Source: a virus (Duplodnaviria > Heunggongvirae > Uroviricota > Caudoviricetes). Taken from it: DNA of 10,774 bases. The notes beneath the pieces are model-generated. The model worked only from the letters and a program-made list of their open reading frames with translations. It did not search any database and was not told the DNA's origin. Positions 1,369-10,774 of the stretch are shown here, piece by piece (position 1 is the stretch's first letter; every line of letters begins with the position of its first letter). A program made the translations under genes and the position numbers. Where the stretch lies: IMG/VR virus record IMGVR_UViG_2531839477_000013, one strand, 5' to 3'.

Positions 1369-1400
1369 GGGTGGGCGCAACTAATCACTTGAAAAGAATG

Positions 1401-1808
1401 TTATTTTATTGATTTATTTTTACGCGCTTTAAGCATTTCTTCGAAGAGTTTGTTGAAGTTTTCTACTCTTGCGCGCATTTCAGACAGCAAGGCTTCCTGC
1501 TCGGAAGATGGAAGAGCATCGAATAATTCGATCAATTCTTTGTGGTTGGGAGTTAGCTCTGTTTCCACATGAAGTTCTTGTGCAGGCACTGGTGCCTTGT
1601 CTTCGTCACCAAACATTAGCCATGTAGGTGAGCACTTCAGAGCATCCGCTAAAGCAAACAATCGTTTTCCGACTGGCTGGGTTTCGTCTCTTTCCCATTG
1701 TGAAATTGTGACGTGAGCAACTCCAGCGAGGCGCGCGGCTTCTCGTTGTGTTAAGCGTAATTCTTTTCGTCGCGCCAGAACTCGCTGGCCCAGGGTTCTT
1801 GTATCCAT
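1401..1808 (-). CDS. dicA: DicA-type prophage repressor (HTH, cI/C2-like), 135 aa
   Basis: 135-aa ORF with an N-terminal HTH (LTQREAARLAGVAHVTISQWERDE) and a C-terminal ...MRARVENFNKLFEEMLKARKNK, closely resembling the K-12 DicA sequence I recall. Divergent from a cro-like gene. Confidence 0.92.
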   Translation of the reverse strand: MDTRTLGQRVLARRKELRLTQREAARLAGVAHVTISQWERDETQPVGKRLFALADALKCSPTWLMFGDEDKAPVPAQELHVETELTPNHKELIELFDALPSSEQEALLSEMRARVENFNKLFEEMLKARKNKSIK

Positions 1809-1889
1809 AGTTAGGTAATTCTAATTTTTCTTGACTTAGGTATCCCGCGCACAATAATGTTAGAAAAGTCTAACAAGAGGGGGGCTTTG
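1809..1889. promoter_or_regulatory. Divergent dicA/dicC promoter-operator region: operator TGTTAGA-aaag-TCTAACA at 1858-1875, degenerate site at 1809-1826, candidate sigma-70 promoter for dicC (TTGACT 1831-1836, AATAAT 1853-1858)
   Basis: Palindromes and promoter hexamers read directly from the sequence. The operator overlaps the -10/+1 of the rightward promoter, as expected for an OR-like switch. Confidence 0.55.
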
Positions 1890-2117
1890 ATGCTTAAAGT
1901 TGACGCAATTACTTTTTTTGGCAGCAAAACAAAGCTTGCCAATGCCGCAGGAGTGAGGCTGGCAAGTGTTGCTGCTTGGGGGATACTGGTTCCTGAAGGT
2001 CGCGCGATGCGTCTACAGGAGGCATCTGGCGGGGAGCTTCAGTATGATCCCAAAGTTTATGATGAATATCGTAAGACGAAGCGGGCGGGGCGGTTGAACA
2101 ATGAAAATCACTCCTGA
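1890..2117 (+). CDS. dicC: DicC (cro-like regulator), 75 aa
   Basis: Track ORF 1857..2117 begins at TTG. The ATG at 1890 is preceded by AAGAGGGGGG. Product MLKVDAITFFGSKTKLANAAGVRLASVAAWGILVPEGRAMRLQEASGGELQYDPKVYDEYRKTKRAGRLNNENHS resembles the K-12 DicC I recall. Confidence 0.88.
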   Translation: MLKVDAITFFGSKTKLANAAGVRLASVAAWGILVPEGRAMRLQEASGGELQYDPKVYDEYRKTKRAGRLNNENHS

Positions 2118-2622
2118 ACAGGCTCGTGAGGCTCTGGATGCCTGGATATGTCGACCAGGAATGACACAGGAGCAGGCGACGATATTAATCACTGAAGCAT
2201 TCTGGGCTTTGAAAGAGCGCCCGAACATCGATGTTCAGCGTGTCACAGATGAAGGTGGCGCGGTTGATCAGCGAGCGCTTGGTGTTAATCGAGTGAAGAT
2301 ATTCGAACGCTGGAAGGCTATCGACACCAGGGATAAGCGTGAAAAGTTCACGGCGCTAGTGCCTGCGATTATGGAGGCTATCCGGATTAGTGATTTCAGG
2401 TTGTATCGTGAAATTACTGACGGAAAAAGCATCACGTGCATGATCGCCGGGTTAAACAAAGAATATGGCGATGTGGTGGAGTCCGGACTGCTTTTTGCTG
2501 ATCCTGCCGTAGTGGATCGTGAAACTGACGAACTTATAGAAAAAGCAATTGCTTTCAAGCTTGCGTATCGACAGCAATACCAACAAAAAGCTGGATGGAA
2601 TTATGAGCCTTCTTTTTGCTGA
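2101..2622 (+). CDS. YdaT/YdfX-like early prophage protein (173 aa), function unknown (cII-position gene)
   Basis: 173-aa ORF. Its ATG overlaps the dicC 3' end by 17 nt, suggesting translational coupling. Family assignment is positional and from memory only. Confidence 0.7.
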   Translation: MKITPEQAREALDAWICRPGMTQEQATILITEAFWALKERPNIDVQRVTDEGGAVDQRALGVNRVKIFERWKAIDTRDKREKFTALVPAIMEAIRISDFRLYREITDGKSITCMIAGLNKEYGDVVESGLLFADPAVVDRETDELIEKAIAFKLAYRQQYQQKAGWNYEPSFC

Positions 2623-3568
2623 ACGCCCACTGGTTATAAACACGCAGCTGGCAATGAAAATTGGCTTAAACGAAGCCATTGTTTTGCAACAACTGCACTA
2701 CTGGTTGAGAGATACCAACTCCGGCATGGAATGTGATGGTGTTCGCTGGATTTATAACACAACGGAACAATGGCTGGAACAGTTCCCATTCTGGTCAGAG
2801 TCAACGTTAAAGCGCGCGTTTGCAAGTCTGAAAACGCTGGGGCTTTTGCGTTGTGAAAAGCTCAATAAATCAAAGCGCGATATGACCAATTTCTACACGA
2901 TCAACTATGGGAGCGAACTTTTAGATGGTGGCAAATTGAGCGAATCCATCGGTTCAAAATGCGCCGCTCCATCAGGTCAAAATGACACGATGGAAGAGGT
3001 CAAAATGAAACGCTCCATTGGTTCAAAACGACCCAATGTCATCGGGTCAAAATGGCCTGATGATCTTACAGAGAATACAACAGAGATTACTACAGAGAAT
3101 AAAAACACTTTTCGTCCGGAAGCTTCGCAACCGGACCCGCAGACGACTGAACAGGATTCTTTAACCCGGAACTCCGACGCGGTTGTGTTTAGTGCGAAAA
3201 AACGCCAGTGGGGTAGCAGGGAGGATTTGGCGTGTGCGCAGTGGATCTGGGGGCGGATCGTGGGTCTCTACGAACAGGCAGCCAGTGATGATGGCGAGAT
3301 CATGCGACCAAAAGAGCCTAACTGGACTGCCTGGGCCAATGACGTGCGCACAATGCGGATGCTGGATGGCAGAAGCCACAGACAAATTTGCGAAATGTTT
3401 GGTCGGGTTCAGCGAGATCCATTCTGGGTAAAAAACATCATGAGCCCGTCAAAGCTCCGCGAAAAATGGGACGAACTGGTCATCCGCCTGGGACGTTCAC
3501 CTGTACAGCGTTGTGTTAATCATATTTCTGAACCGGATACAGAAATTCCGCCTGGTTTCAGAGGATAA
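2603..3568 (+). CDS. Phage replication initiator: N-terminal winged-helix DNA-binding domain, iteron-containing linker, DnaT-like (primosomal protein I) C-terminal domain
   Basis: The ATG at 2603 (MSLLFAERPLVINTQLAMKIGLNEAIVLQQLHYWL...) is the first ATG; the track ORF starts at an upstream TTG at 2549. The C-terminus ...VNHISEPDTEIPPGFRG closely matches the E. coli DnaT C-terminus (...VSEPDSQIPPGFRG) as I recall it. Five iterons lie inside the gene, as in lambda O. Confidence 0.85.
   Translation: MSLLFAERPLVINTQLAMKIGLNEAIVLQQLHYWLRDTNSGMECDGVRWIYNTTEQWLEQFPFWSESTLKRAFASLKTLGLLRCEKLNKSKRDMTNFYTINYGSELLDGGKLSESIGSKCAAPSGQNDTMEEVKMKRSIGSKRPNVIGSKWPDDLTENTTEITTENKNTFRPEASQPDPQTTEQDSLTRNSDAVVFSAKKRQWGSREDLACAQWIWGRIVGLYEQAASDDGEIMRPKEPNWTAWANDVRTMRMLDGRSHRQICEMFGRVQRDPFWVKNIMSPSKLREKWDELVIRLGRSPVQRCVNHISEPDTEIPPGFRG
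2945..3054 (+). repeat. Replication origin iterons: five direct repeats at 23-24 bp spacing (2945, 2968, 2991, 3014, 3038), core GGT(T)CAAAA(T/C)G, followed by an A-rich tract with three ACAGAGA repeats (3068-3098)
   Basis: Repeats read directly: tccatcggttcaaaatg, tccatcaggtcaaaatg, tggaagaggtcaaaatg, tccattggttcaaaacg, gtcatcgggtcaaaatg. Their placement in the linker-coding region of the initiator gene parallels ori-lambda inside O. Confidence 0.75.
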
Positions 3569-3608
3569 GTGTTGATTTCAGGTCATGAGGTAATTTTAAG
3601 GGGGACTT

Positions 3609-4031
3609 GTGGCAAAAGTTTTTACACAAGAAGAGCGGGAAAAAATTAAATGGCAGGTGGTGGAACTCGTGCGCCAGAGCGGCCGTGAGACGTTACGGCA
3701 ACTGGAAGCTAAAACAGGTGCGACTAGATATCTGATGAGCGTTCTTGCCAGAGAGCTGGTAGCCAGTGGCGATGTATACAACTCCGGCTACGGGTTATTC
3801 CCCTCTGAACAGGCGCGTAAGGACTGGCAAAACGCCCGCAAAAAACTCTCGAGGGCAAAGGTGAAGAAACCTGCTGTGGTTGATCCGGACCTTATCTGGT
3901 CATCACCTGACGGAGAAATACGTCGCTACGACAGTCGCCTAAACATAATCTGTCGCGAGTGCCGGAAGAGCGAAGTTATGCAGCGCATACTGGCTTTCTA
4001 TCAGGGTAATTTTCAGGACGTGGCGCAGTGA
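3609..4031 (+). CDS. Hypothetical prophage protein (140 aa)
   Basis: GTG start at 3609 with a strong Shine-Dalgarno (AAGGGGGA) 5-12 nt upstream. The stop overlaps the next start (GTGA). No family recognised. Confidence 0.65.
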   Translation: MAKVFTQEEREKIKWQVVELVRQSGRETLRQLEAKTGATRYLMSVLARELVASGDVYNSGYGLFPSEQARKDWQNARKKLSRAKVKKPAVVDPDLIWSSPDGEIRRYDSRLNIICRECRKSEVMQRILAFYQGNFQDVAQ

Positions 4032-4474
4032 GTGCACCGGCAACCATTCTTGATATGTGCTGTGGCAGCCGCATGTTCTGGTTCGATAAGTCTGACAAAC
4101 GGGCGATATTCAGCGATATCAGAAAAGAAGGATACACATTACGCAATGGGAGACGCTTGATTATCAGCCCTGACATTATCGCAGATTTTCGTGCATTATC
4201 ATTTGCAGACGCATCTTTTTCGATGGTTGTATTAGACCCTCCGCATCTTGAGCGTGTTGGTGATAACGCCTGGATGGGAAAGAAATATGGACGGCTGAAT
4301 AAAGATGCCTGGCGTGATGATTTGCGACAGAGATTTAAAGAAGCTTTTCGGGTGTTGAGGTCGCACGGCGTTCTGATTTTTTAATGGAATGAAACGCAAA
4401 TACCGGTAAGCCAGATTCTGGCACTGACAGATAGAAAGCCTGTTATCTGTCAACGAACAGGGAAAAAACGATAA
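4028..4474 (+). pseudogene. SAM-dependent methyltransferase-like gene interrupted by an in-frame TAA at 4382-4384
   Basis: N-terminal motif-I-like ILDMCCGSRMF and motif-IV-like VLDPPH. After the TAA the same frame continues as WNETQIPVSQILALTDRKPVICQRTGKKR to a second TAA at 4472-4474. The track reports only 4028..4384. Confidence 0.55.
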
Positions 4475-5715: not shown

Positions 5716-6049
5716 ATACAGCGAACTCCATTGGTTTAGTTGGATATTTACTGTGCTGGACAAAAACGGTTTGCGGGGAAATCTTAGTTAAGTAGAATGA
5801 CTGCGGGTGCTTGAGGCTATCTGCCTCGGGCATGGACACCAACGGCAGATAGAGAAAAGCCCCAGTTAACATTACGCGTCCTGCAAGACGCTTAACATTA
5901 ATCTGAGGCCAATTTCATGCTAGACACATGTAGGTTAGCCTCTTACGTGCCGAAAGGCACGGAGAAGCAGGCTATTGTTAACACCAAGCTGTAATGTCCC
6001 CTTTGAACCATTCAAAAATGTCCCCAGACAATTCTCTGGGGGATTTTTC

Positions 6050-7390
6050 ATGATCAAAGAGACTGTTACGATGAGTCATAAGGAACTCCACCGACTTCAG
6101 ATTATTCAGGAGTCAATTAATCGACATATTACTCAGGAACAAGCTGCGGCACGCATTGGCATTTCTATTCGGCAGGTTAAACGTCTGGTGCAACGGTATA
6201 GAAATGAAGGGCCTTCTGGTCTGGTTTCCCACCGACGTGGAAAGCGTCCTAATAATTCCTTTTCTACTGAATTCAGAGCAACAGTAATTTCACTCCTCAA
6301 AGGCCGTTACGCTGATTTTGGACCTACGTTTGCGTGCGAAAAATTGCGCGAGATACACGGTTTATCTTTATCCGTTGAAACTCTCAGAAAGTGGATGATA
6401 GAAGAGGGGTTATGGCGTGAACGCCGTCGTAAAATTGCCCGTATATATCAACGCCGCATGCGACGACCATCTTATGGTGAACTGATCCAGATTGATGGCT
6501 CACCTCATGACTGGTTTGAAAATCGAGGCCCCAGATGTACACTGATCGTTTTCATTGATGATGCCACCAGTGCGTTGATGGCGTTGCGTTTTGTGCCTGC
6601 TGAAACAACCCGGGCTTACATGGAAACCCTCCGGGGTTACCTTAATGATCATGGCGTACCGCTCGCTCTCTACTCTGATAGACACAGTATATTCAGGGTA
6701 AATAACCCAGAGCGGGAAGGTGAGCTGACCCAGTTCACTCGTGCGATAAAGACACTGGGCATCGAGCCAATCCATGCCAACAGCCCGCAGGCAAAAGGGC
6801 GGGTAGAGCGCGCCAATCAGACACTACAGGACAGGCTGGTCAAAGAAATGCGGCTTCAGAATATCAGTGATATTGAAACAGCAAATGCATGGTTGCCGAC
6901 CTTTATTGAAGCCTATAACAACCGGTTCGCTACGTCGCCTCGTACTACTGATAATGCTCATCTTGATGTGCACCATTCTGAAGAGGAACTGGGTTATATC
7001 TTCAGCCTACAGGCGAAGCGCGTTCTGTCTAAAAATCTCACTTTCCAGTACAAAAGCAGTGCGTTTCAGGTACGCAGTGAGAGCCGGGGATATCGACTTA
7101 GGCATTCGGTTGTTACTGTATGCGAGAACTTTGACGGTGAAATTAACGTTCTGTATGACGGGAAAGCGCTGGGCTGGGAAAAGTATGTTGATGGCCCGGA
7201 GCCTATACCACTGGATGATGAAAAGAGTGTCCATGAACGAGTGGATAATGCCCGTATTGATTTACGCTCAAAATACTATGTTAAACCTAAAGCTGACCAT
7301 CCCTGGCTTACGCGCCGAACGCAAAGTCATCAGCAAGTTAAGCCCCCGAAGTTACCTAAAAAGAAGCCTGATCCCGATAAAAAAGATTGA
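6050..7390 (+). CDS. DDE transposase-like protein of the rve (integrase core) type, N-terminal HTH, 446 aa; IS481/ISNCY-like
   Basis: First in-frame ATG at 6050 after a GGGGGA Shine-Dalgarno (track ORF starts at TTG 5975). Catalytic-looking residues IQIDGS, LYSDRHS, GRVERANQTL. Probably the full-length counterpart of the intK fragment I recall in K-12 Qin. Element boundaries not identified. Confidence 0.82.
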   Translation: MIKETVTMSHKELHRLQIIQESINRHITQEQAAARIGISIRQVKRLVQRYRNEGPSGLVSHRRGKRPNNSFSTEFRATVISLLKGRYADFGPTFACEKLREIHGLSLSVETLRKWMIEEGLWRERRRKIARIYQRRMRRPSYGELIQIDGSPHDWFENRGPRCTLIVFIDDATSALMALRFVPAETTRAYMETLRGYLNDHGVPLALYSDRHSIFRVNNPEREGELTQFTRAIKTLGIEPIHANSPQAKGRVERANQTLQDRLVKEMRLQNISDIETANAWLPTFIEAYNNRFATSPRTTDNAHLDVHHSEEELGYIFSLQAKRVLSKNLTFQYKSSAFQVRSESRGYRLRHSVVTVCENFDGEINVLYDGKALGWEKYVDGPEPIPLDDEKSVHERVDNARIDLRSKYYVKPKADHPWLTRRTQSHQQVKPPKLPKKKPDPDKKD

Positions 7391-7826: not shown

Positions 7827-8159
7827 TTAGACGTAAATATCAATGGTGCCAGCGGTATTTGTATCGTCTTTTTTCTCTTCTTTTTTATCAGGCTGAACTG
7901 TCGCGTCTTCATTCTTTTTCTCTGCCTGCTGCCTTAACAACTGCTCCAGTTGAGCCCAGAGGCTTTCAATTTGCTTCTGTACCAATGCAGCCATTTCTTT
8001 TTTCTGCTGTGTCGTCATCCCCTCTTCCGATGAGATTTTCCCAAGCTTTTCAGTCAGCACCTGAATTTGTCTTGTGATTTTGGCTATTTCTGATGTTCCT
8101 TCCGGGGCGGAGTTGTTTGAAATAACGGTTGAGGTATTTCCCTGAATTGTGACAGACAT
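7827..8159 (-). CDS. flxA: FlxA (sigma-28 dependent prophage protein), 110 aa
   Basis: 110-aa ORF MSVTIQGNTSTVISNNSAPEGTSEIAKITRQIQ..., matching FlxA as I recall it. AAGGAG Shine-Dalgarno 7 nt upstream of the ATG. Confidence 0.9.
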   Translation of the reverse strand: MSVTIQGNTSTVISNNSAPEGTSEIAKITRQIQVLTEKLGKISSEEGMTTQQKKEMAALVQKQIESLWAQLEQLLRQQAEKKNEDATVQPDKKEEKKDDTNTAGTIDIYV

Positions 8160-8691: not shown

Positions 8692-8931
8692 ATGGGTAGC
8701 ATTAACCTGCGTATTGACGATGAACTTAAAGCGCGTTCTTACGCCGCGCTTGAAAAAATGGGTGTAACTCCTTCTGAAGCGCTTCGTCTCATGCTCGAGT
8801 ATATCGCTGACAATGAACGCTTGCCGTTCAAACAGACACTCCTGAGTGATGAAGATGCTGAACTTGTGGAGATAGTGAAAGAACGGCTTCGTAATCCTAA
8901 GCCAGTACGTGTGACGCTGGATGAACTCTGA
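8692..8931 (+). CDS. relB: RelB antitoxin (79 aa)
   Basis: Product MGSINLRIDDELKARSYAALEKMGVTPSEALRLMLEYIADNERLPFKQTLLSDEDAELVEIVKERLRNPKPVRVTLDEL is near-identical to K-12 RelB as I recall it. Its stop overlaps the relE start by 1 nt. Confidence 0.95.
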   Translation: MGSINLRIDDELKARSYAALEKMGVTPSEALRLMLEYIADNERLPFKQTLLSDEDAELVEIVKERLRNPKPVRVTLDEL

Positions 8932-9218
8932 TGGCGTATTTTCTGGATTTTGACGAGCGGGCACTAAAGGAATGGCGAAAGCTGGGCTCGACGGTACGTG
9001 AACAGTTGAAAAAGAAGCTGGTTGAAGTACTTGAGTCACCCCGGATTGAAGCAAACAAGCTCCGTGGTATGCCTGATTGTTACAAGATTAAGCTCCGGTC
9101 TTCAGGCTATCGCCTTGTATACCAGGTTATAGACGAGAAAGTTGTCGTTTTCGTGATTTCTGTTGGGAAAAGAGAACGCTCGGAAGTATATAGCGAGGCG
9201 GTCAAACGCATTCTCTGA
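8931..9218 (+). CDS. relE: RelE toxin (mRNA interferase), 95 aa
   Basis: Product MAYFLDFDERALKEWRKLGSTVREQLKKKLVEVLESPRIEANKLRGMPDCYKIKLRSSGYRLVYQVIDEKVVVFVISVGKRERSEVYSEAVKRIL matches RelE as I recall it. Confidence 0.95.
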   Translation: MAYFLDFDERALKEWRKLGSTVREQLKKKLVEVLESPRIEANKLRGMPDCYKIKLRSSGYRLVYQVIDEKVVVFVISVGKRERSEVYSEAVKRIL

Positions 9219-9289: not shown

Positions 9290-9445
9290 ATGAAGCAGCA
9301 AAAGGCGATGTTAATCGCCCTGATCGTCATCTGTTTAACCGTCATAGTGACGGCACTGGTAACGAGGAAAGACCTCTGCGAGGTACGAATCCGAACCGGC
9401 CAGACGGAGGTCGCTGTCTTCACAGCTTACGAACCTGAGGAGTAA
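9290..9445 (+). CDS. hokD: HokD (RelF) Hok-family membrane toxin, 51 aa, below the ORF-track cutoff
   Basis: Hand translation gives MKQQKAMLIALIVICLTVIVTALVTRKDLCEVRIRTGQTEVAVFTAYEPEE with TAA at 9443-9445. A typical Hok sequence, in the expected place after relE. Confidence 0.9.
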   Translation: MKQQKAMLIALIVICLTVIVTALVTRKDLCEVRIRTGQTEVAVFTAYEPEE

Positions 9446-9467: not shown

Positions 9468-10774
9468 CATAAGCGCTAACTTAAGGGTTGTGGTATTACG
9501 CCTGATATGATTTAACGTGCCGATGAATTACTCTCACGATAACTGGTCAGCAATTCTGGCCCATATTGGTAAGCCCGAAGAACTGGATACTTCGGCACGT
9601 AATGCCGGGGCTCTAACCCGCCGCCGCGAAATTCGTGATGCTGCAACTCTGCTACGTCTGGGGCTGGCTTACGGCCCCGGGGGGATGTCATTACGTGAAG
9701 TCACTGCATGGGCTCAGCTCCATGACGTTGCAACATTATCTGACGTGGCTCTCCTGAAGCGGCTGCGGAATGCCGCCGACTGGTTTGGCATACTTGCCGC
9801 ACAAACACTTGCTGTACGCGCCGCAGTTACGGGTTGTACAAGCGGAAAGAGATTGCGTCTTGTCGATGGAACAGCAATCAGTGCGCCCGGGGGCGGCAGC
9901 GCTGAATGGCGACTACATATGGGATATGATCCTCATACCTGTCAGTTCACTGATTTTGAGCTAACCGACAGCAGAGACGCTGAACGGCTGGACCGATTTG
10001 CGCAAACGGCAGACGAGATACGCATTGCTGACCGGGGATTCGGTTCGCGTCCCGAATGTATCCGCTCACTTGCTTTTGGAGAAGCTGATTATATCGTCCG
10101 GGTTCACTGGCGAGGATTGCGCTGGTTAACTGCAGAAGGAATGCGCTTTGACATGATGGGTTTTCTGCGCGGGCTGGATTGCGGTAAGAACGGTGAAACC
10201 ACTGTAATGATAGGCAATTCAGGTAATAAAAAAGCCGGAGCTCCCTTTCCGGCACGTCTCATTGCCGTATCACTTCCTCCCGAAAAAGCATTAATCAGTA
10301 AAACCCGACTGCTCAGCGAGAATCGTCGAAAAGGACGAGTAGTTCAGGCGGAAACGCTGGAAGCAGCGGGCCATGTGCTATTGCTAACATCATTACCGGA
10401 AGATGAATATTCAGCAGAGCAAGTGGCTGATTGTTACCGTCTGCGATGGCAAATTGAACTGGCTTTTAAGCGGCTCAAAAGTTTGCTGCACCTGGATGCT
10501 TTGCGTGCAAAGGAACCTGAACTCGCGAAAGCGTGGATATTTGCTAATCTACTCGCCGCATTTTTAATTGACGACATAATCCAGCCATCGCTGGATTTCC
10601 CCCCCAGAAGTGCCGGATCCGAAAAGAAGAACTAACTCGTTGTGGAGAATAACAAAAATGGTCATCTGGAGCTTACAGGTGGCCATTCGTGGGACAGTAT
10701 CCCTGACAGCCTACAAAACGCAATTGAAGAACGCGAGGCATCGTCTTAACGAGGCACCGAGGCGTCGCATTCTT
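9468..10774 (+). mobile_element. IS186 (IS4 family), left end at 9468; right end lies about 30 bp beyond the window
   Basis: The sequence from CATAAGCGCTAACTTAAGGGTTG (9468-) matches the IS186 left terminus as I recall it. The window ends inside the element just before the expected right inverted repeat. Inserted 22 bp after the hokD stop in a GC-rich site (GGCGGGGGAGAATCC). Confidence 0.88.
9523..10635 (+). CDS. insL: IS186 transposase (IS4 family, DDE), 370 aa
   Basis: ATG at 9523 (track ORF starts at GTG 9517). Product MNYSHDNWSAILAHIGKPEELD... with the IS4-family Y-x2-R-x3-E-x6-K motif (YRLRWQIELAFKRLK). Confidence 0.9.
   Translation: MNYSHDNWSAILAHIGKPEELDTSARNAGALTRRREIRDAATLLRLGLAYGPGGMSLREVTAWAQLHDVATLSDVALLKRLRNAADWFGILAAQTLAVRAAVTGCTSGKRLRLVDGTAISAPGGGSAEWRLHMGYDPHTCQFTDFELTDSRDAERLDRFAQTADEIRIADRGFGSRPECIRSLAFGEADYIVRVHWRGLRWLTAEGMRFDMMGFLRGLDCGKNGETTVMIGNSGNKKAGAPFPARLIAVSLPPEKALISKTRLLSENRRKGRVVQAETLEAAGHVLLLTSLPEDEYSAEQVADCYRLRWQIELAFKRLKSLLHLDALRAKEPELAKAWIFANLLAAFLIDDIIQPSLDFPPRSAGSEKKN

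What the first reader, a model, noticed from the sequence alone, without database searches (positions are those of the whole stretch)
2603..4031. Initiator with a DnaT-like C-terminus and no recognisable helicase-loader gene after it
The C-terminal about 100 residues end in EPDTEIPPGFRG, almost the same as the C-terminus of host primosomal protein DnaT as I recall it. The next gene (140 aa) shows no Walker A/B motif (GxxxxGKT/S or a hydrophobic-D-E box) and no lambda P-like signature. This suggests the phage recruits the host replisome through a DnaT-like route rather than a P/DnaC-type loader.
Basis: partly seen in the sequence, partly recalled or inferred. Interest (0 to 1): 0.45.

Follow-up and report, generated by a model that had tools for sequence, protein, structure and literature searches.

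The report
Loader-less phage initiator with DnaT tail
A lambda-O-type phage replication initiator has lost its neighbouring helicase-loader gene but keeps a 20-residue tail shared with host DnaT, a tail that in phages always sits just before a DnaC-type loader gene, which suggests it recruits the host's own DnaB-DnaC complex.

Summary
The 321-aa protein (2603-3568) ends in RCVNHISEPDTEIPPGFRG, matching DnaT 161-179. The next gene (3609-4031) is a DUF977/Ren-like protein, not a loader.

The resemblance to DnaT covers only a disordered tail of about 20 residues. The preceding domain is homologous to the lambda O C-terminal domain, not to the DnaT three-helix bundle. The gene also carries a lambda-type origin: five iterons and an AT-rich tract.

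Comparative results change the interpretation:
- The tail is a portable motif found on at least five unrelated initiator architectures.
- 80 of 80 DnaC-type loader genes sampled in viral contigs are preceded, 2-7 nt upstream, by an ORF ending in this tail. The same holds for E. coli dnaT-dnaC and Rac ydaU-ydaV.
- None of 102 lambda-P-type loaders is preceded by it; their initiators carry other tails.
- About half of tail-bearing initiators have no loader. These include viable phages with this exact module and phage LLS.
- The window's spacer appears to keep a relic of a deleted dnaC-like gene.

Best reading: the tail docks the DnaB-DnaC complex, so the phage uses host DnaC rather than bypassing it. 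This is inferred from association, not shown.

The parts
2603..3568 (+). Replication initiator gene (321 aa), lambda-O-type, loader-less ('O-only') version
   Evidence: PHROG 391 'replication initiation O-like', 5.6e-91. BLASTP to lambda O, E 5e-26. Same coordinates annotated in phages HannyBb and mEp460_ev081 and in E. coli genomes.
2633..2917 (+). N-terminal winged-helix DNA-binding domain (aa 11-105)
   Evidence: AF2 model pLDDT about 65-80 with H/E pattern of a wHTH. Best Foldseek PDB hits are the RepA_N plasmid initiators 4pql/4pt7/5kbj, prob 0.99-1.0 but E only 0.01-0.06. PHROG 6493/11233 initiator N-domains.
2952..3054 (+). Origin iterons: five copies of GKTCAAAAYG at 2952, 2975, 2998, 3021 and 3045 (23-24 bp spacing), inside the region coding the disordered linker
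   Evidence: the repeat finder family D1. Pattern search gives 5 matches against 0.14 expected; 0 of 200 shuffles reach 5. Same layout as the annotated lambda ori iterons inside gene O.
3050..3109 (+). AT-rich tract to the right of the iterons, the presumed DNA-unwinding element
   Evidence: GC 0.33 and AT skew +0.40, the lowest GC in the gene. Its position relative to the iterons matches lambda ori (established knowledge).
3218..3490 (+). C-terminal helical domain (aa 206-296), homologous to lambda O residues 188-270
   Evidence: BLASTP, 34% identity, E 5e-26. tblastn hit on lambda itself. 2947 cluster representatives in the family. No similarity to the DnaT bundle.
3506..3565 (+). DnaT-type C-terminal tail QRCVNHISEPDTEIPPGFRG (aa 302-321), predicted disordered; proposed docking peptide
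   Evidence: match to DnaT. (pLDDT below 50). (portable motif; 80/80 upstream of DnaC-type loaders). (selection at the peptide level).
3569..3608 (+). 40-nt spacer. Its 3' part (GGTCATGAGGTAA + TTTTAAGGGGGACTT) aligns with the last 13 nt of a dnaC-like gene plus the DUF977 ribosome-binding site in relatives, so it looks like a relic of a deleted loader gene
   Evidence: Local alignment to locus L025, where the DnaC-like gene is directly followed by DUF977. The match is short, so this is suggestive only.
3609..4031 (+). DUF977 / LygF / Ren-like protein (140 aa); not a helicase loader
   Evidence: Pfam DUF977 5e-29; PHROG 142 'Ren-like exclusion protein' 1.6e-47. C-terminus matches lambda Ren. 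In full modules it lies downstream of the DnaC-type loader.
2101..2622 (+). cII-like / YdaT-family activator (context; overlaps the initiator start by 20 nt)
   Evidence: PHROG 163, 2.6e-40; Pfam YdaT_toxin.
1857..2117 (+). Cro-like regulator (context)
   Evidence: Pfam P22_Cro, 7e-12.
1401..1808 (-). CI-type repressor (context)
   Evidence: Pfam HTH_3, 1.5e-14. Annotated as repressor in related phages.

Best explanation
The gene at 2603-3568 encodes a lambda-O-type origin-binding initiator with four parts. (1) An N-terminal winged-helix domain. (2) A disordered linker whose coding DNA is the origin: five iterons and an AT-rich tract. (3) A lambda-O-like C-terminal helical domain. (4) A disordered 20-residue tail (R-x-V-N-x-I-S-x-P-D-x-x-I-P-P-G-F-R-G) shared with host DnaT. 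The anatomy is shown; the mechanism that follows is inferred. The initiator binds its iterons and opens the AT-rich tract. Its tail then acts as a short docking peptide for a DnaC-type loader in complex with DnaB. In complete modules the partner is the phage's own DnaC homologue, encoded 2-7 nt downstream. In this module that gene has been deleted. The tail, which is nearly identical to the one host DnaT carries just upstream of dnaC, would therefore recruit the host DnaB6-DnaC6 complex directly. So the phage needs no loader of its own, and it depends on host DnaC rather than bypassing it. Which subunit the tail touches is unresolved; DnaC is more likely, DnaB is possible.
For: Anatomy.

The tail equals the DnaT tail.

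The tail is portable. A family-agnostic DNA pattern for IPPGFRG-stop found 120 ORFs in viral contigs. They carry at least five different preceding domains: this lambda-O-like domain; an unassigned family with an FFGPxxxFE motif and no Pfam hit; DUF1376 (YdaU); DUF1376 plus a true DnaT domain; and HTH_36 plus Phg_2220_C.

Forward association: of 101 such ORFs with enough downstream sequence, the next gene is a DnaC-type loader in 50, no loader in 51, and lambda-P-type in 0.

Reverse association: 80 of 80 viral loci chosen only through their DnaC-type loader have an upstream ORF ending [IV]PxGF[RK]G 2-7 nt before the loader start. None of 102 lambda-P-type loaders does. Their initiators end in NTDW- or WNxxExW-type tails, lambda O itself included.

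The host shows the same layout. DnaT ends ...PPGFRG, then 2 nt, then dnaC. Rac YdaU ends ...PPGFRG, then 6 nt, then YdaV, which is 50% identical to DnaC.

Selection acts on the peptide. The invariant S, P, D, P, G, F, G positions use two to five synonymous codons each. In loader-less contexts the R and G codons change (AGA GGA, CGC GGT) while FRG is kept.

The loader-less module works. It occurs at 96-99.9% identity in phages PhiR42_1, HannyBb and mEp460_ev081. The experimentally grown O-only phage LLS has an unrelated O protein that also ends ...IPEGFRG and is followed by a methyltransferase (PMC12315714).

Deletion relic of a dnaC-like gene in the spacer.
Against: All evidence for the docking function is association; no binding was tested. 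Many sampled loci are close relatives, so the counts overstate the number of independent events, although at least 10 distinct C-terminal contexts carry the tail.

Reviews state that no DnaT-DnaC interaction has been documented (PMC5778457, PMC11087952). The 2026 cryo-EM paper favours the DnaT N-terminal domain as the DnaB/DnaC recruiter, by analogy with DnaA (PMC13377028); its text does not describe the tail.

Brezellec et al. 2017 report a 'DnaT C-ter motif' in DopC, which sits next to a lambda-P-like DopE. That may be a counter-example. I did not check whether the motif there is the tail or the bundle.

A second loader-less class in Proteus and Providencia has a different tail (WxGIW), so loader-less replication does not require this tail.

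This particular prophage copy is decayed downstream (IS elements, broken methyltransferase) and may not replicate at all.
Confidence: 0.55

Rival explanations
1. A true DnaT-like restart route. After origin opening, the tail engages PriA and/or PriB, or substitutes for DnaT in a preprimosome, and DnaB is loaded through the restart machinery.
For: The tail is shared with DnaT, a component of the PriA-PriB-DnaT pathway. The function of the DnaT tail is undescribed in the papers read here. LLS growth is enhanced by RecBCD (PMC12315714), which is compatible with recombination- and restart-linked replication.
Against: The DnaT surfaces that bind PriA (CTD, modelled from the 84-153 crystal structure) and PriB (linker) in the cryo-EM structures are absent here (PMC13377028). 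This route does not explain why the tail is found upstream of 80/80 DnaC-type loaders and 0/102 lambda-P-type loaders. The LLS authors attribute its RecBCD dependence to the lack of a Rec module, not to initiation.
Confidence: 0.12
2. The tail contacts DnaB helicase directly, as DnaA domain I does at oriC. DnaC, whether phage or host, comes along only as DnaB's bound loader.
For: At oriC the initiator contacts DnaB, not DnaC (established knowledge; PMC5778457). The association data cannot tell a DnaB contact from a DnaC contact within the DnaB-DnaC complex.
Against: Tail and loader are inherited together across different initiator families, with recombination breakpoints upstream of the tail: an identical QRCVNHISEPDTEIPPGFRG occurs on two unrelated domains. 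If the tail bound host DnaB, it could equally serve lambda-P modules, yet it never occurs there. A different tail (QDYRAG..DGSF) goes with distant IstB-type loaders in Oxalobacteraceae, which suggests tail-loader co-adaptation.
Confidence: 0.15
3. The module is simply defective. The loader was lost, and the element replicates only passively or with a helper prophage's loader. The tail would then be a leftover.
For: This copy lies in a decayed Qin-like prophage with two IS elements and a frameshifted methyltransferase. The spacer looks like a deletion scar. E. coli genomes often carry several lambdoid prophages that could help.
Against: The same initiator-DUF977 arrangement occurs in isolated phages HannyBb, mEp460_ev081 and PhiR42_1. 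No helicase or loader is annotated in the HannyBb regions inspected (38.7 kb of 45.3 kb) or in the whole LLS genome. All 41 loader-less close relatives keep an intact tail, and loader-less tails show synonymous change with the peptide preserved. Zheng et al. count 34 of 314 lambdoid phages as O-only.
Confidence: 0.08
4. The DUF977/Ren-like protein, or another small neighbour, is an unrecognised helicase loader that replaces DnaC or P.
For: It is the gene immediately downstream of the initiator, and its function is unknown.
Against: In complete modules DUF977 lies downstream of a DnaC-type loader, so it is an addition and not a substitute. Other loader-less, tail-bearing initiators are followed by unrelated genes: methyltransferases, PerC-like, ParB-like. 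It is related to lambda Ren (PHROG 142; local match E 2e-6), which by established knowledge is not needed for lambda replication. It has no NTPase motif.
Confidence: 0.04
5. The tail is conserved at the DNA level, as the ribosome-binding site and translational coupling signal for the downstream loader gene, not as a peptide.
For: The last two codons are AGG GGG in 47 of 49 loader-linked cases and lie 2-7 nt before the loader ATG, which is a good Shine-Dalgarno position.
Against: This can explain at most two or three codons. The invariant S, P, D, P, G and F positions further upstream vary freely at synonymous sites, including AGY/TCN serine codons. In loader-less modules the RG codons change but the amino acids do not.
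Confidence: 0.03

Closest known systems
Phage lambda O protein and the O-P replication module
   Same: Same position after cII in the early right operon. Origin iterons plus an AT-rich tract inside the initiator gene. The C-terminal domain is homologous to lambda O 188-270 (E 5e-26). The gene after the loader position is Ren-like, as in lambda (O-P-ren).
   Different: [quoted passage not shown] There is no P gene. The C-terminal tail is the DnaT type (…IPPGFRG) instead of lambda O's …LDLTNTDWIYGVDL, which goes with P-type loaders.
O-only lambdoid replication modules (phage LLS; Zheng, Casjens et al., Genome Res 2025, PMC12315714)
   Same: A single O homologue with no helicase or loader. This module is found in mEp460-type phages, which that paper cites as LLS relatives. 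The paper says replication of this type 'is not yet understood'.
   Different: The LLS O protein has a different architecture (HTH_36 + Phg_2220_C). The two share only the tail. The paper, as far as I searched it, does not mention DnaT or a shared tail.
E. coli DnaT (primosomal protein i) and the dnaT-dnaC operon
   Same: The last 19-20 residues follow one motif. The gene layout is the same as in complete phage modules: tail, stop, 2-7 nt, then a DnaC-type loader.
   Different: No DnaT N-terminal oligomerisation domain, no acidic linker and no three-helix ssDNA-binding bundle (PF17948). DnaT is targeted by PriA/PriB to forks, whereas this protein is targeted by its own iterons.
Rac prophage YdaU-YdaV-YdaW module of E. 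coli K-12 (initiator plus DnaC-type loader)
   Same: YdaU ends …RQVNTVSLPDSAIPPGFRG. YdaV is a DnaC-type loader 6 nt downstream. DUF1627 and DUF977 genes follow. The regulatory genes upstream are of the same kinds (RacR, YdaS, YdaT).
   Different: YdaU is a DUF1376 protein with a different C-terminal domain. The window lacks the YdaV-like loader and the DUF1627 gene.
DopC-DopE (Brezellec et al. 2017, PMC5509034)
   Same: An O-like protein reported to carry a 'DnaT C-ter motif' (HHpred hit to 2ru8).
   Different: DopC is a domesticated chromosomal gene without iterons, and it is paired with a lambda-P-like DopE. Whether it has the tail or the DnaT bundle was not checked here.

Membership tests
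DnaT (primosomal protein; NCBIfam NF002770, Pfam PF17948) | Three-helix-bundle ssDNA-binding domain (DnaT 84-153, PF17948) | tested here: not met
   No Pfam hit at E<=0.1. hhalign of the core domain against DnaT 80-160 gives probability 0.06%. No DnaT structure among the 50 Foldseek PDB matches listed. As a positive control, a phage DUF1376 protein does hit PF17948 at 3e-14.
DnaT (primosomal protein; NCBIfam NF002770, Pfam PF17948) | Full-length match including the N-terminal oligomerisation domain and the acidic linker that binds PriB | tested here: not met
   NF002770 scores 16.3 bits against a cutoff of 201, matching only profile positions 160-179.
DnaT (primosomal protein; NCBIfam NF002770, Pfam PF17948) | Conserved C-terminal tail kRD.N..SePD..IPpGFRG | tested here: met
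Lambda-O-type replication initiator | Origin (iterons plus AT-rich tract) inside its own coding sequence | tested here: met
   Five iterons against 0.14 expected; GC 0.33 in the adjacent tract. Compare the lambda annotation.
Lambda-O-type replication initiator | C-terminal domain homologous to the lambda O C-terminal domain (the loader-interacting part) | tested here: met
   BLASTP E 5e-26, 34% identity over 148 residues. tblastn hits on lambda, 434 and HK225.
Lambda-O-type replication initiator | Lambda O N-terminal DNA-binding domain (Pfam Phage_rep_O) | tested here: not met
   No Pfam hit. The N-domain is a different winged helix, closest in fold to RepA_N initiators, at weak E-values.
Lambda-O-type replication initiator | Origin binding and unwinding activity | not testable with these tools
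   Needs biochemistry or a replication assay.
O-only lambdoid replication module | [quoted passage not shown] | tested here: met
   Window ORFs. HannyBb regions 1-38739, the mEp460_ev081 early region and the whole LLS genome have none annotated.
DnaC/IstB-type AAA+ helicase loader (tested for the 140-aa protein) | AAA+ fold with Walker A/B motifs; match to Pfam IstB_IS21 or Bac_DnaA | tested here: not met
   Only DUF977 is hit. The true loaders in relatives hit IstB_IS21 at 7e-19.
Lambda P helicase loader (tested for the 140-aa protein) | Match to Pfam Phage_lambda_P (PF06992) | tested here: not met
   No hit. The control lambda-P-like neighbour scores 3e-63.
DUF977 / LygF / Ren-like | Full-length match to PF06163 and PHROG 142 | tested here: met
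   5.1e-29 over residues 1-136 and 1.6e-47. Local match to the lambda Ren C-terminus.

The most novel reading that the evidence does not exclude
The conserved C-terminal tail of DnaT (residues about 161-179) is the missing element that recruits DnaB6-DnaC6 to the PriA-PriB-DnaT preprimosome. It would be a docking peptide for DnaC-type loaders that the host acquired together with dnaC from a phage initiator-loader module. O-only lambdoid phages such as mEp460, HannyBb and LLS replicate by presenting the same peptide from an origin-bound initiator, and may compete with DnaT for host DnaC.
Probability: 0.4. Interest if true: 0.8.

Novelty: new variant of a known kind. Interest (0 to 1): 0.62.

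Why it matters
Two open questions become directly testable.

1. How do 'O-only' lambdoid phages, about one in nine of those surveyed in 2025, load a helicase without P, DnaC or DnaB genes? The 2025 survey says replication of this type is not yet understood.
2. How does the PriA-PriB-DnaT preprimosome recruit DnaB-DnaC? The 2018 review, a 2024 JBC paper and a 2026 cryo-EM paper all call this unknown, and no DnaT-DnaC contact has been documented.

The comparative pattern here points to one short peptide as the candidate link for both. The tail is always upstream of DnaC-type loaders, never upstream of P-type loaders, is kept in loader-less phages, and is shared with DnaT directly upstream of dnaC.

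The pattern also suggests that initiator C-terminal tails in general are swappable, loader-specific docking motifs. It further suggests that dnaT-dnaC is a domesticated phage initiator-loader pair.

Tried and rejected
- Pfam and NCBIfam scans for a DnaT domain in the initiator found nothing beyond the tail.
- Profile-profile comparison of the C-domain family with DnaT aligned the tail only.
- The AF2 model has mean pLDDT 53.7. It is usable for domain boundaries but too weak for fine fold claims. Foldseek PDB hits were only the N-terminal wHTH at E 0.01-0.06, with no hit for the C-domain.
- The first related-loci run returned only relatives at 88% identity or more, which was not diverse.
- The lambda-P reverse scan returned only near-identical lambda P genes. 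It supplements the 26 diverse lambda-P-like loci of the genome scan but adds few independent lineages.
- The cryo-EM papers on the preprimosome were read for the role of the DnaT tail. The additional DnaT CTD copies were docked from the 4OU7 crystal structure (residues 84-153), and the text does not describe the tail.
- The BBRC 2019 paper on the DnaT 84-179 crystal structure is not held.
- 'PPGFRG' has no occurrence in the paper library.
- The idea that DUF977 is a hidden loader was rejected (see rivals).
Full report
**Context**

The window is part of a lambdoid prophage of Escherichia coli at the Qin locus. Identical DNA (positions 1400-4400) lies between rspB and the flxA-relBE-hokD genes in strain S1-IND-01-A. 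The gene order is:
- CI-type repressor, 1401-1808, minus strand
- Cro-like, 1857-2117
- cII-like/YdaT, 2101-2622
- the initiator, 2603-3568
- a 140-aa gene, 3609-4031
- a broken methyltransferase

Two IS elements and Qin genes follow.

The initiator is 321 aa with an ATG at 2603, the coordinates used by PGAP and by phage annotators. It ends in QRCVNHISEPDTEIPPGFRG.
- phmmer against PDB aligns residues 301-321 with DnaT 159-179.
- The NCBIfam DnaT model matches only residues 302-321 (16 bits, cutoff 201).
- The 140-aa protein is DUF977 (5e-29) and PHROG 'Ren-like exclusion protein' (1.6e-47). It matches no AAA+/IstB, DnaB or lambda-P family. Its C-terminus aligns with lambda Ren.

**The resemblance to DnaT stops at the tail**

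- Pfam's DnaT DNA-binding domain is not detected.
- I built a family alignment of the C-terminal region from an exhaustive search (2947 cluster representatives at E<=1e-3) and a DnaT alignment of 105 sequences. hhalign aligns only the last 15 columns (P = 1e-4). With the tail removed, the probability is 0.06%.
- An AF2 model (mean pLDDT 53.7) shows a winged-helix N-domain (aa 11-105), a disordered stretch (109-203), a helical domain (206-296) and a disordered tail (297-321).
- Foldseek against PDB finds RepA_N plasmid initiators for the N-domain at weak E-values. None of the 50 listed matches is a DnaT structure.
- The helical domain is homologous to the C-terminal domain of lambda O itself (34% identity, E 5e-26).

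**The gene carries a lambda-type origin**

Five copies of GKTCAAAAYG lie at 23-24 bp spacing (2952-3054), against 0.14 expected by chance. An AT-rich tract follows (3050-3109, GC 0.33). Both lie in the DNA that codes the disordered linker, as in lambda gene O.

**The loader-less arrangement is real and functional**

- The initiator-DUF977 pair occurs at 96-99.9% identity in phages PhiR42_1, HannyBb and mEp460_ev081. No helicase or loader is annotated in the regions inspected.
- 705 of 5426 complete E. coli genomes hold most of 1400-4400.
- Zheng et al. (Genome Res 2025, PMC12315714) report that 34 of 314 lambdoid phages encode only an O homologue, and that replication of this type 'is not yet understood'.

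**Tails vary and predict the neighbouring gene**

Members of the lambda-O-like C-domain family end in different short tails. In 80 loci from one genome per species the tail class predicts the adjacent gene (families confirmed by Pfam):

| Tail class | Adjacent gene |
|---|---|
| WNxxExW type | lambda-P-like, 16/16 (plus 2 variants) |
| NTDW type | lambda-P-like, 7/9 (plus 1) |
| QDYRAG..DGSF (Oxalobacteraceae) | IstB/DnaC-type loader, 4/5 |
| …GFRG (DnaT type) | lambda-P-like 0/19; DnaC-type 2; otherwise unrelated genes |

Lambda O itself ends …LDLTNTDWIYGVDL, and lambda P follows it.

**The DnaT-type tail is portable and tied to DnaC-type loaders**

Among 80 close viral relatives of the window protein, all keep the tail. 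37 have a 246-248-aa DnaC-type loader beginning a few nt after the stop codon (7 nt in most), followed by DUF1627 and DUF977 genes in most. 41 have DUF977 at about +41, as in the window.

A family-agnostic DNA pattern for IPPGFRG-stop found 120 ORFs in viral contigs with at least five different preceding domains:
- the lambda-O-like domain of this window
- an unassigned family with an FFGPxxxFE motif and no Pfam hit
- DUF1376, which is Rac YdaU
- DUF1376 plus a true DnaT domain (PF17948, 3e-14)
- HTH_36 plus Phg_2220_C

Of 101 ORFs with enough downstream sequence, the next gene is DnaC-type in 50, not a loader in 51, and lambda-P-type in 0.

The reverse test selected 80 viral loci only through their DnaC-type loader. 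All 80 have an upstream ORF ending [IV]PxGF[RK]G 2-7 nt before the loader start. Two of the 80 are host dnaT-dnaC. In contrast, 76 of 76 lambda-P loci have NTDW tails.

E. coli K-12 shows the same layout:
- DnaT …RDVNTVSEPDSQIPPGFRG, then 2 nt, then DnaC.
- YdaU …RQVNTVSLPDSAIPPGFRG, then 6 nt, then YdaV, which is 50% identical to DnaC.

**Selection acts on the peptide**

In the 34 distinct tail sequences upstream of loaders, S-13, P-11, D-10, P-6, G-4, F-3 and G-1 are invariant or nearly so, while using two to five synonymous codons each. The last two codons are almost always AGG GGG, which fits a Shine-Dalgarno role for the loader gene. In loader-less modules they become AGA GGA (as in the window), AGG GGA, CGC GGT or CGC GGA in 14 of 51 cases, yet still encode R-G. 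So the peptide is maintained even without a phage loader, which implies a host target.

**The loader-less state looks derived**

The window's 40-nt spacer aligns with the last 13 nt of a dnaC-like gene plus the DUF977 ribosome-binding site of a relative in which the loader is directly followed by DUF977. The match is short, so this is suggestive only.

**An independent case**

Phage LLS is the experimentally grown O-only phage of Zheng et al. Its O protein has a different architecture but ends …VDTKIPEGFRG and is followed by a methyltransferase. No loader is annotated anywhere in its genome.

**Mechanism (inferred)**

The initiator binds its iterons and opens the AT-rich tract. The tail then docks a DnaC-type loader in complex with DnaB. 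Where the phage loader gene is gone, the host DnaB6-DnaC6 complex is used.

The phage does not avoid a DnaC-type loader; it most likely borrows the host's. The PriA- and PriB-binding parts of DnaT defined by cryo-EM (PMC13377028) are absent here, so a PriA/PriB route has no structural support.

**Caveats**

- No binding was tested, and the sampled loci are not independent lineages.
- Reviews note that no DnaT-DnaC interaction has been documented (PMC5778457; PMC11087952).
- The cryo-EM authors favour the DnaT N-terminal domain as the recruiter.
- DopC-DopE (PMC5509034) may be a counter-example that I did not check.
- Whether the tail contacts DnaC or DnaB is unresolved.
- One lead: DnaC A84, where the dnaC1331 change blocks the PriA/PriB pathway, lies in a patch that is invariant between DnaC and the phage loaders.

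**Novelty**

O-only modules are known, and automated pipelines already label this protein 'Primosomal protein I'. A DnaT-like motif was noted once, in DopC. I did not find the following in the held literature, and 'PPGFRG' has zero occurrences there:
- the recognition of the tail as a portable motif
- its complete association with DnaC-type loaders
- its absence from P-type modules
- its presence in loader-less phages, including LLS

I rate this a new variant of a known kind, with moderate-to-high interest because it gives concrete tests for two open questions.

Noticed in passing
Loci L085-L164 (genome contigs); lambda O in L367:87-986: Initiators sharing the lambda-O-like C-domain end in at least five recurrent tail classes: GFRG, NTDW, WNxxExW, WxGIW and QDYRAG..DGSF. 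NTDW and WNxxExW tails go with lambda-P-type loaders; lambda O itself has NTDW. QDYRAG..DGSF goes with distant IstB-type loaders in Duganella and Massilia. This suggests swappable, loader-specific docking tails.
   Followed up: partly
L118-L162 (Proteus, Providencia, Morganella, Edwardsiella prophages): A second loader-less class: initiators ending in …AWxGIWQQ…, followed by methyltransferases, KilA-like or small genes and no recognisable loader. How these load a helicase is unexplained.
   Followed up: no
L168 and similar loci (family D): Phage proteins made of a DUF1376 N-domain, a genuine DnaT DNA-binding domain (PF17948, 3e-14) and the tail. Some are followed by a DnaC-type loader. This suggests that host dnaT-dnaC descends from such a phage initiator-loader pair.
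   Followed up: partly
window 3557-3568, compared with loader-linked relatives: In loader-linked modules the last two sense codons are AGG GGG and double as the Shine-Dalgarno sequence of the loader gene. In the window they are AGA GGA: same amino acids, but the SD is degraded.
   Followed up: yes
window 4028-4384: The SAM-dependent DNA methyltransferase ORF is truncated. PGAP marks the homologous gene 'frameshifted; internal stop' in an identical genome. It overlaps the DUF977 stop by 4 nt.
   Followed up: no
window 5975-7390 and 9517-10635: Two transposase genes: ISNCY family (8e-140; the homologous region of a related genome is annotated IS1202-like ISEsa1) and IS4 family. They interrupt the prophage between the replication module and the Qin-type genes.
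   Followed up: partly
window 7827-8159 (-), 8692-9218 (+), 9290-9445 (+): flxA-like gene, the relB-relE toxin-antitoxin pair and a hok-family toxin gene, as in the Qin cryptic prophage of K-12. This shows that the replication module sits in a Qin-locus prophage more complete than the K-12 remnant.
   Followed up: partly
P0001, P0002, P0004: Some sources predict a 448-aa protein that joins a YdaT-family segment to the initiator (Pfam YdaT_toxin on the product; 56 contigs for P0001). Gene-call artefact, frameshift or real fusion: not examined.
   Followed up: no
L286:3753-4313 (E. coli K-12 Rac ydaW): By visual comparison of the sequences only, K-12 'YdaW' begins like the DUF1627 proteins that follow DnaC-type loaders in intact modules, then diverges. 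It therefore looks like a truncated or fused remnant, not a DUF977 protein.
   Followed up: no
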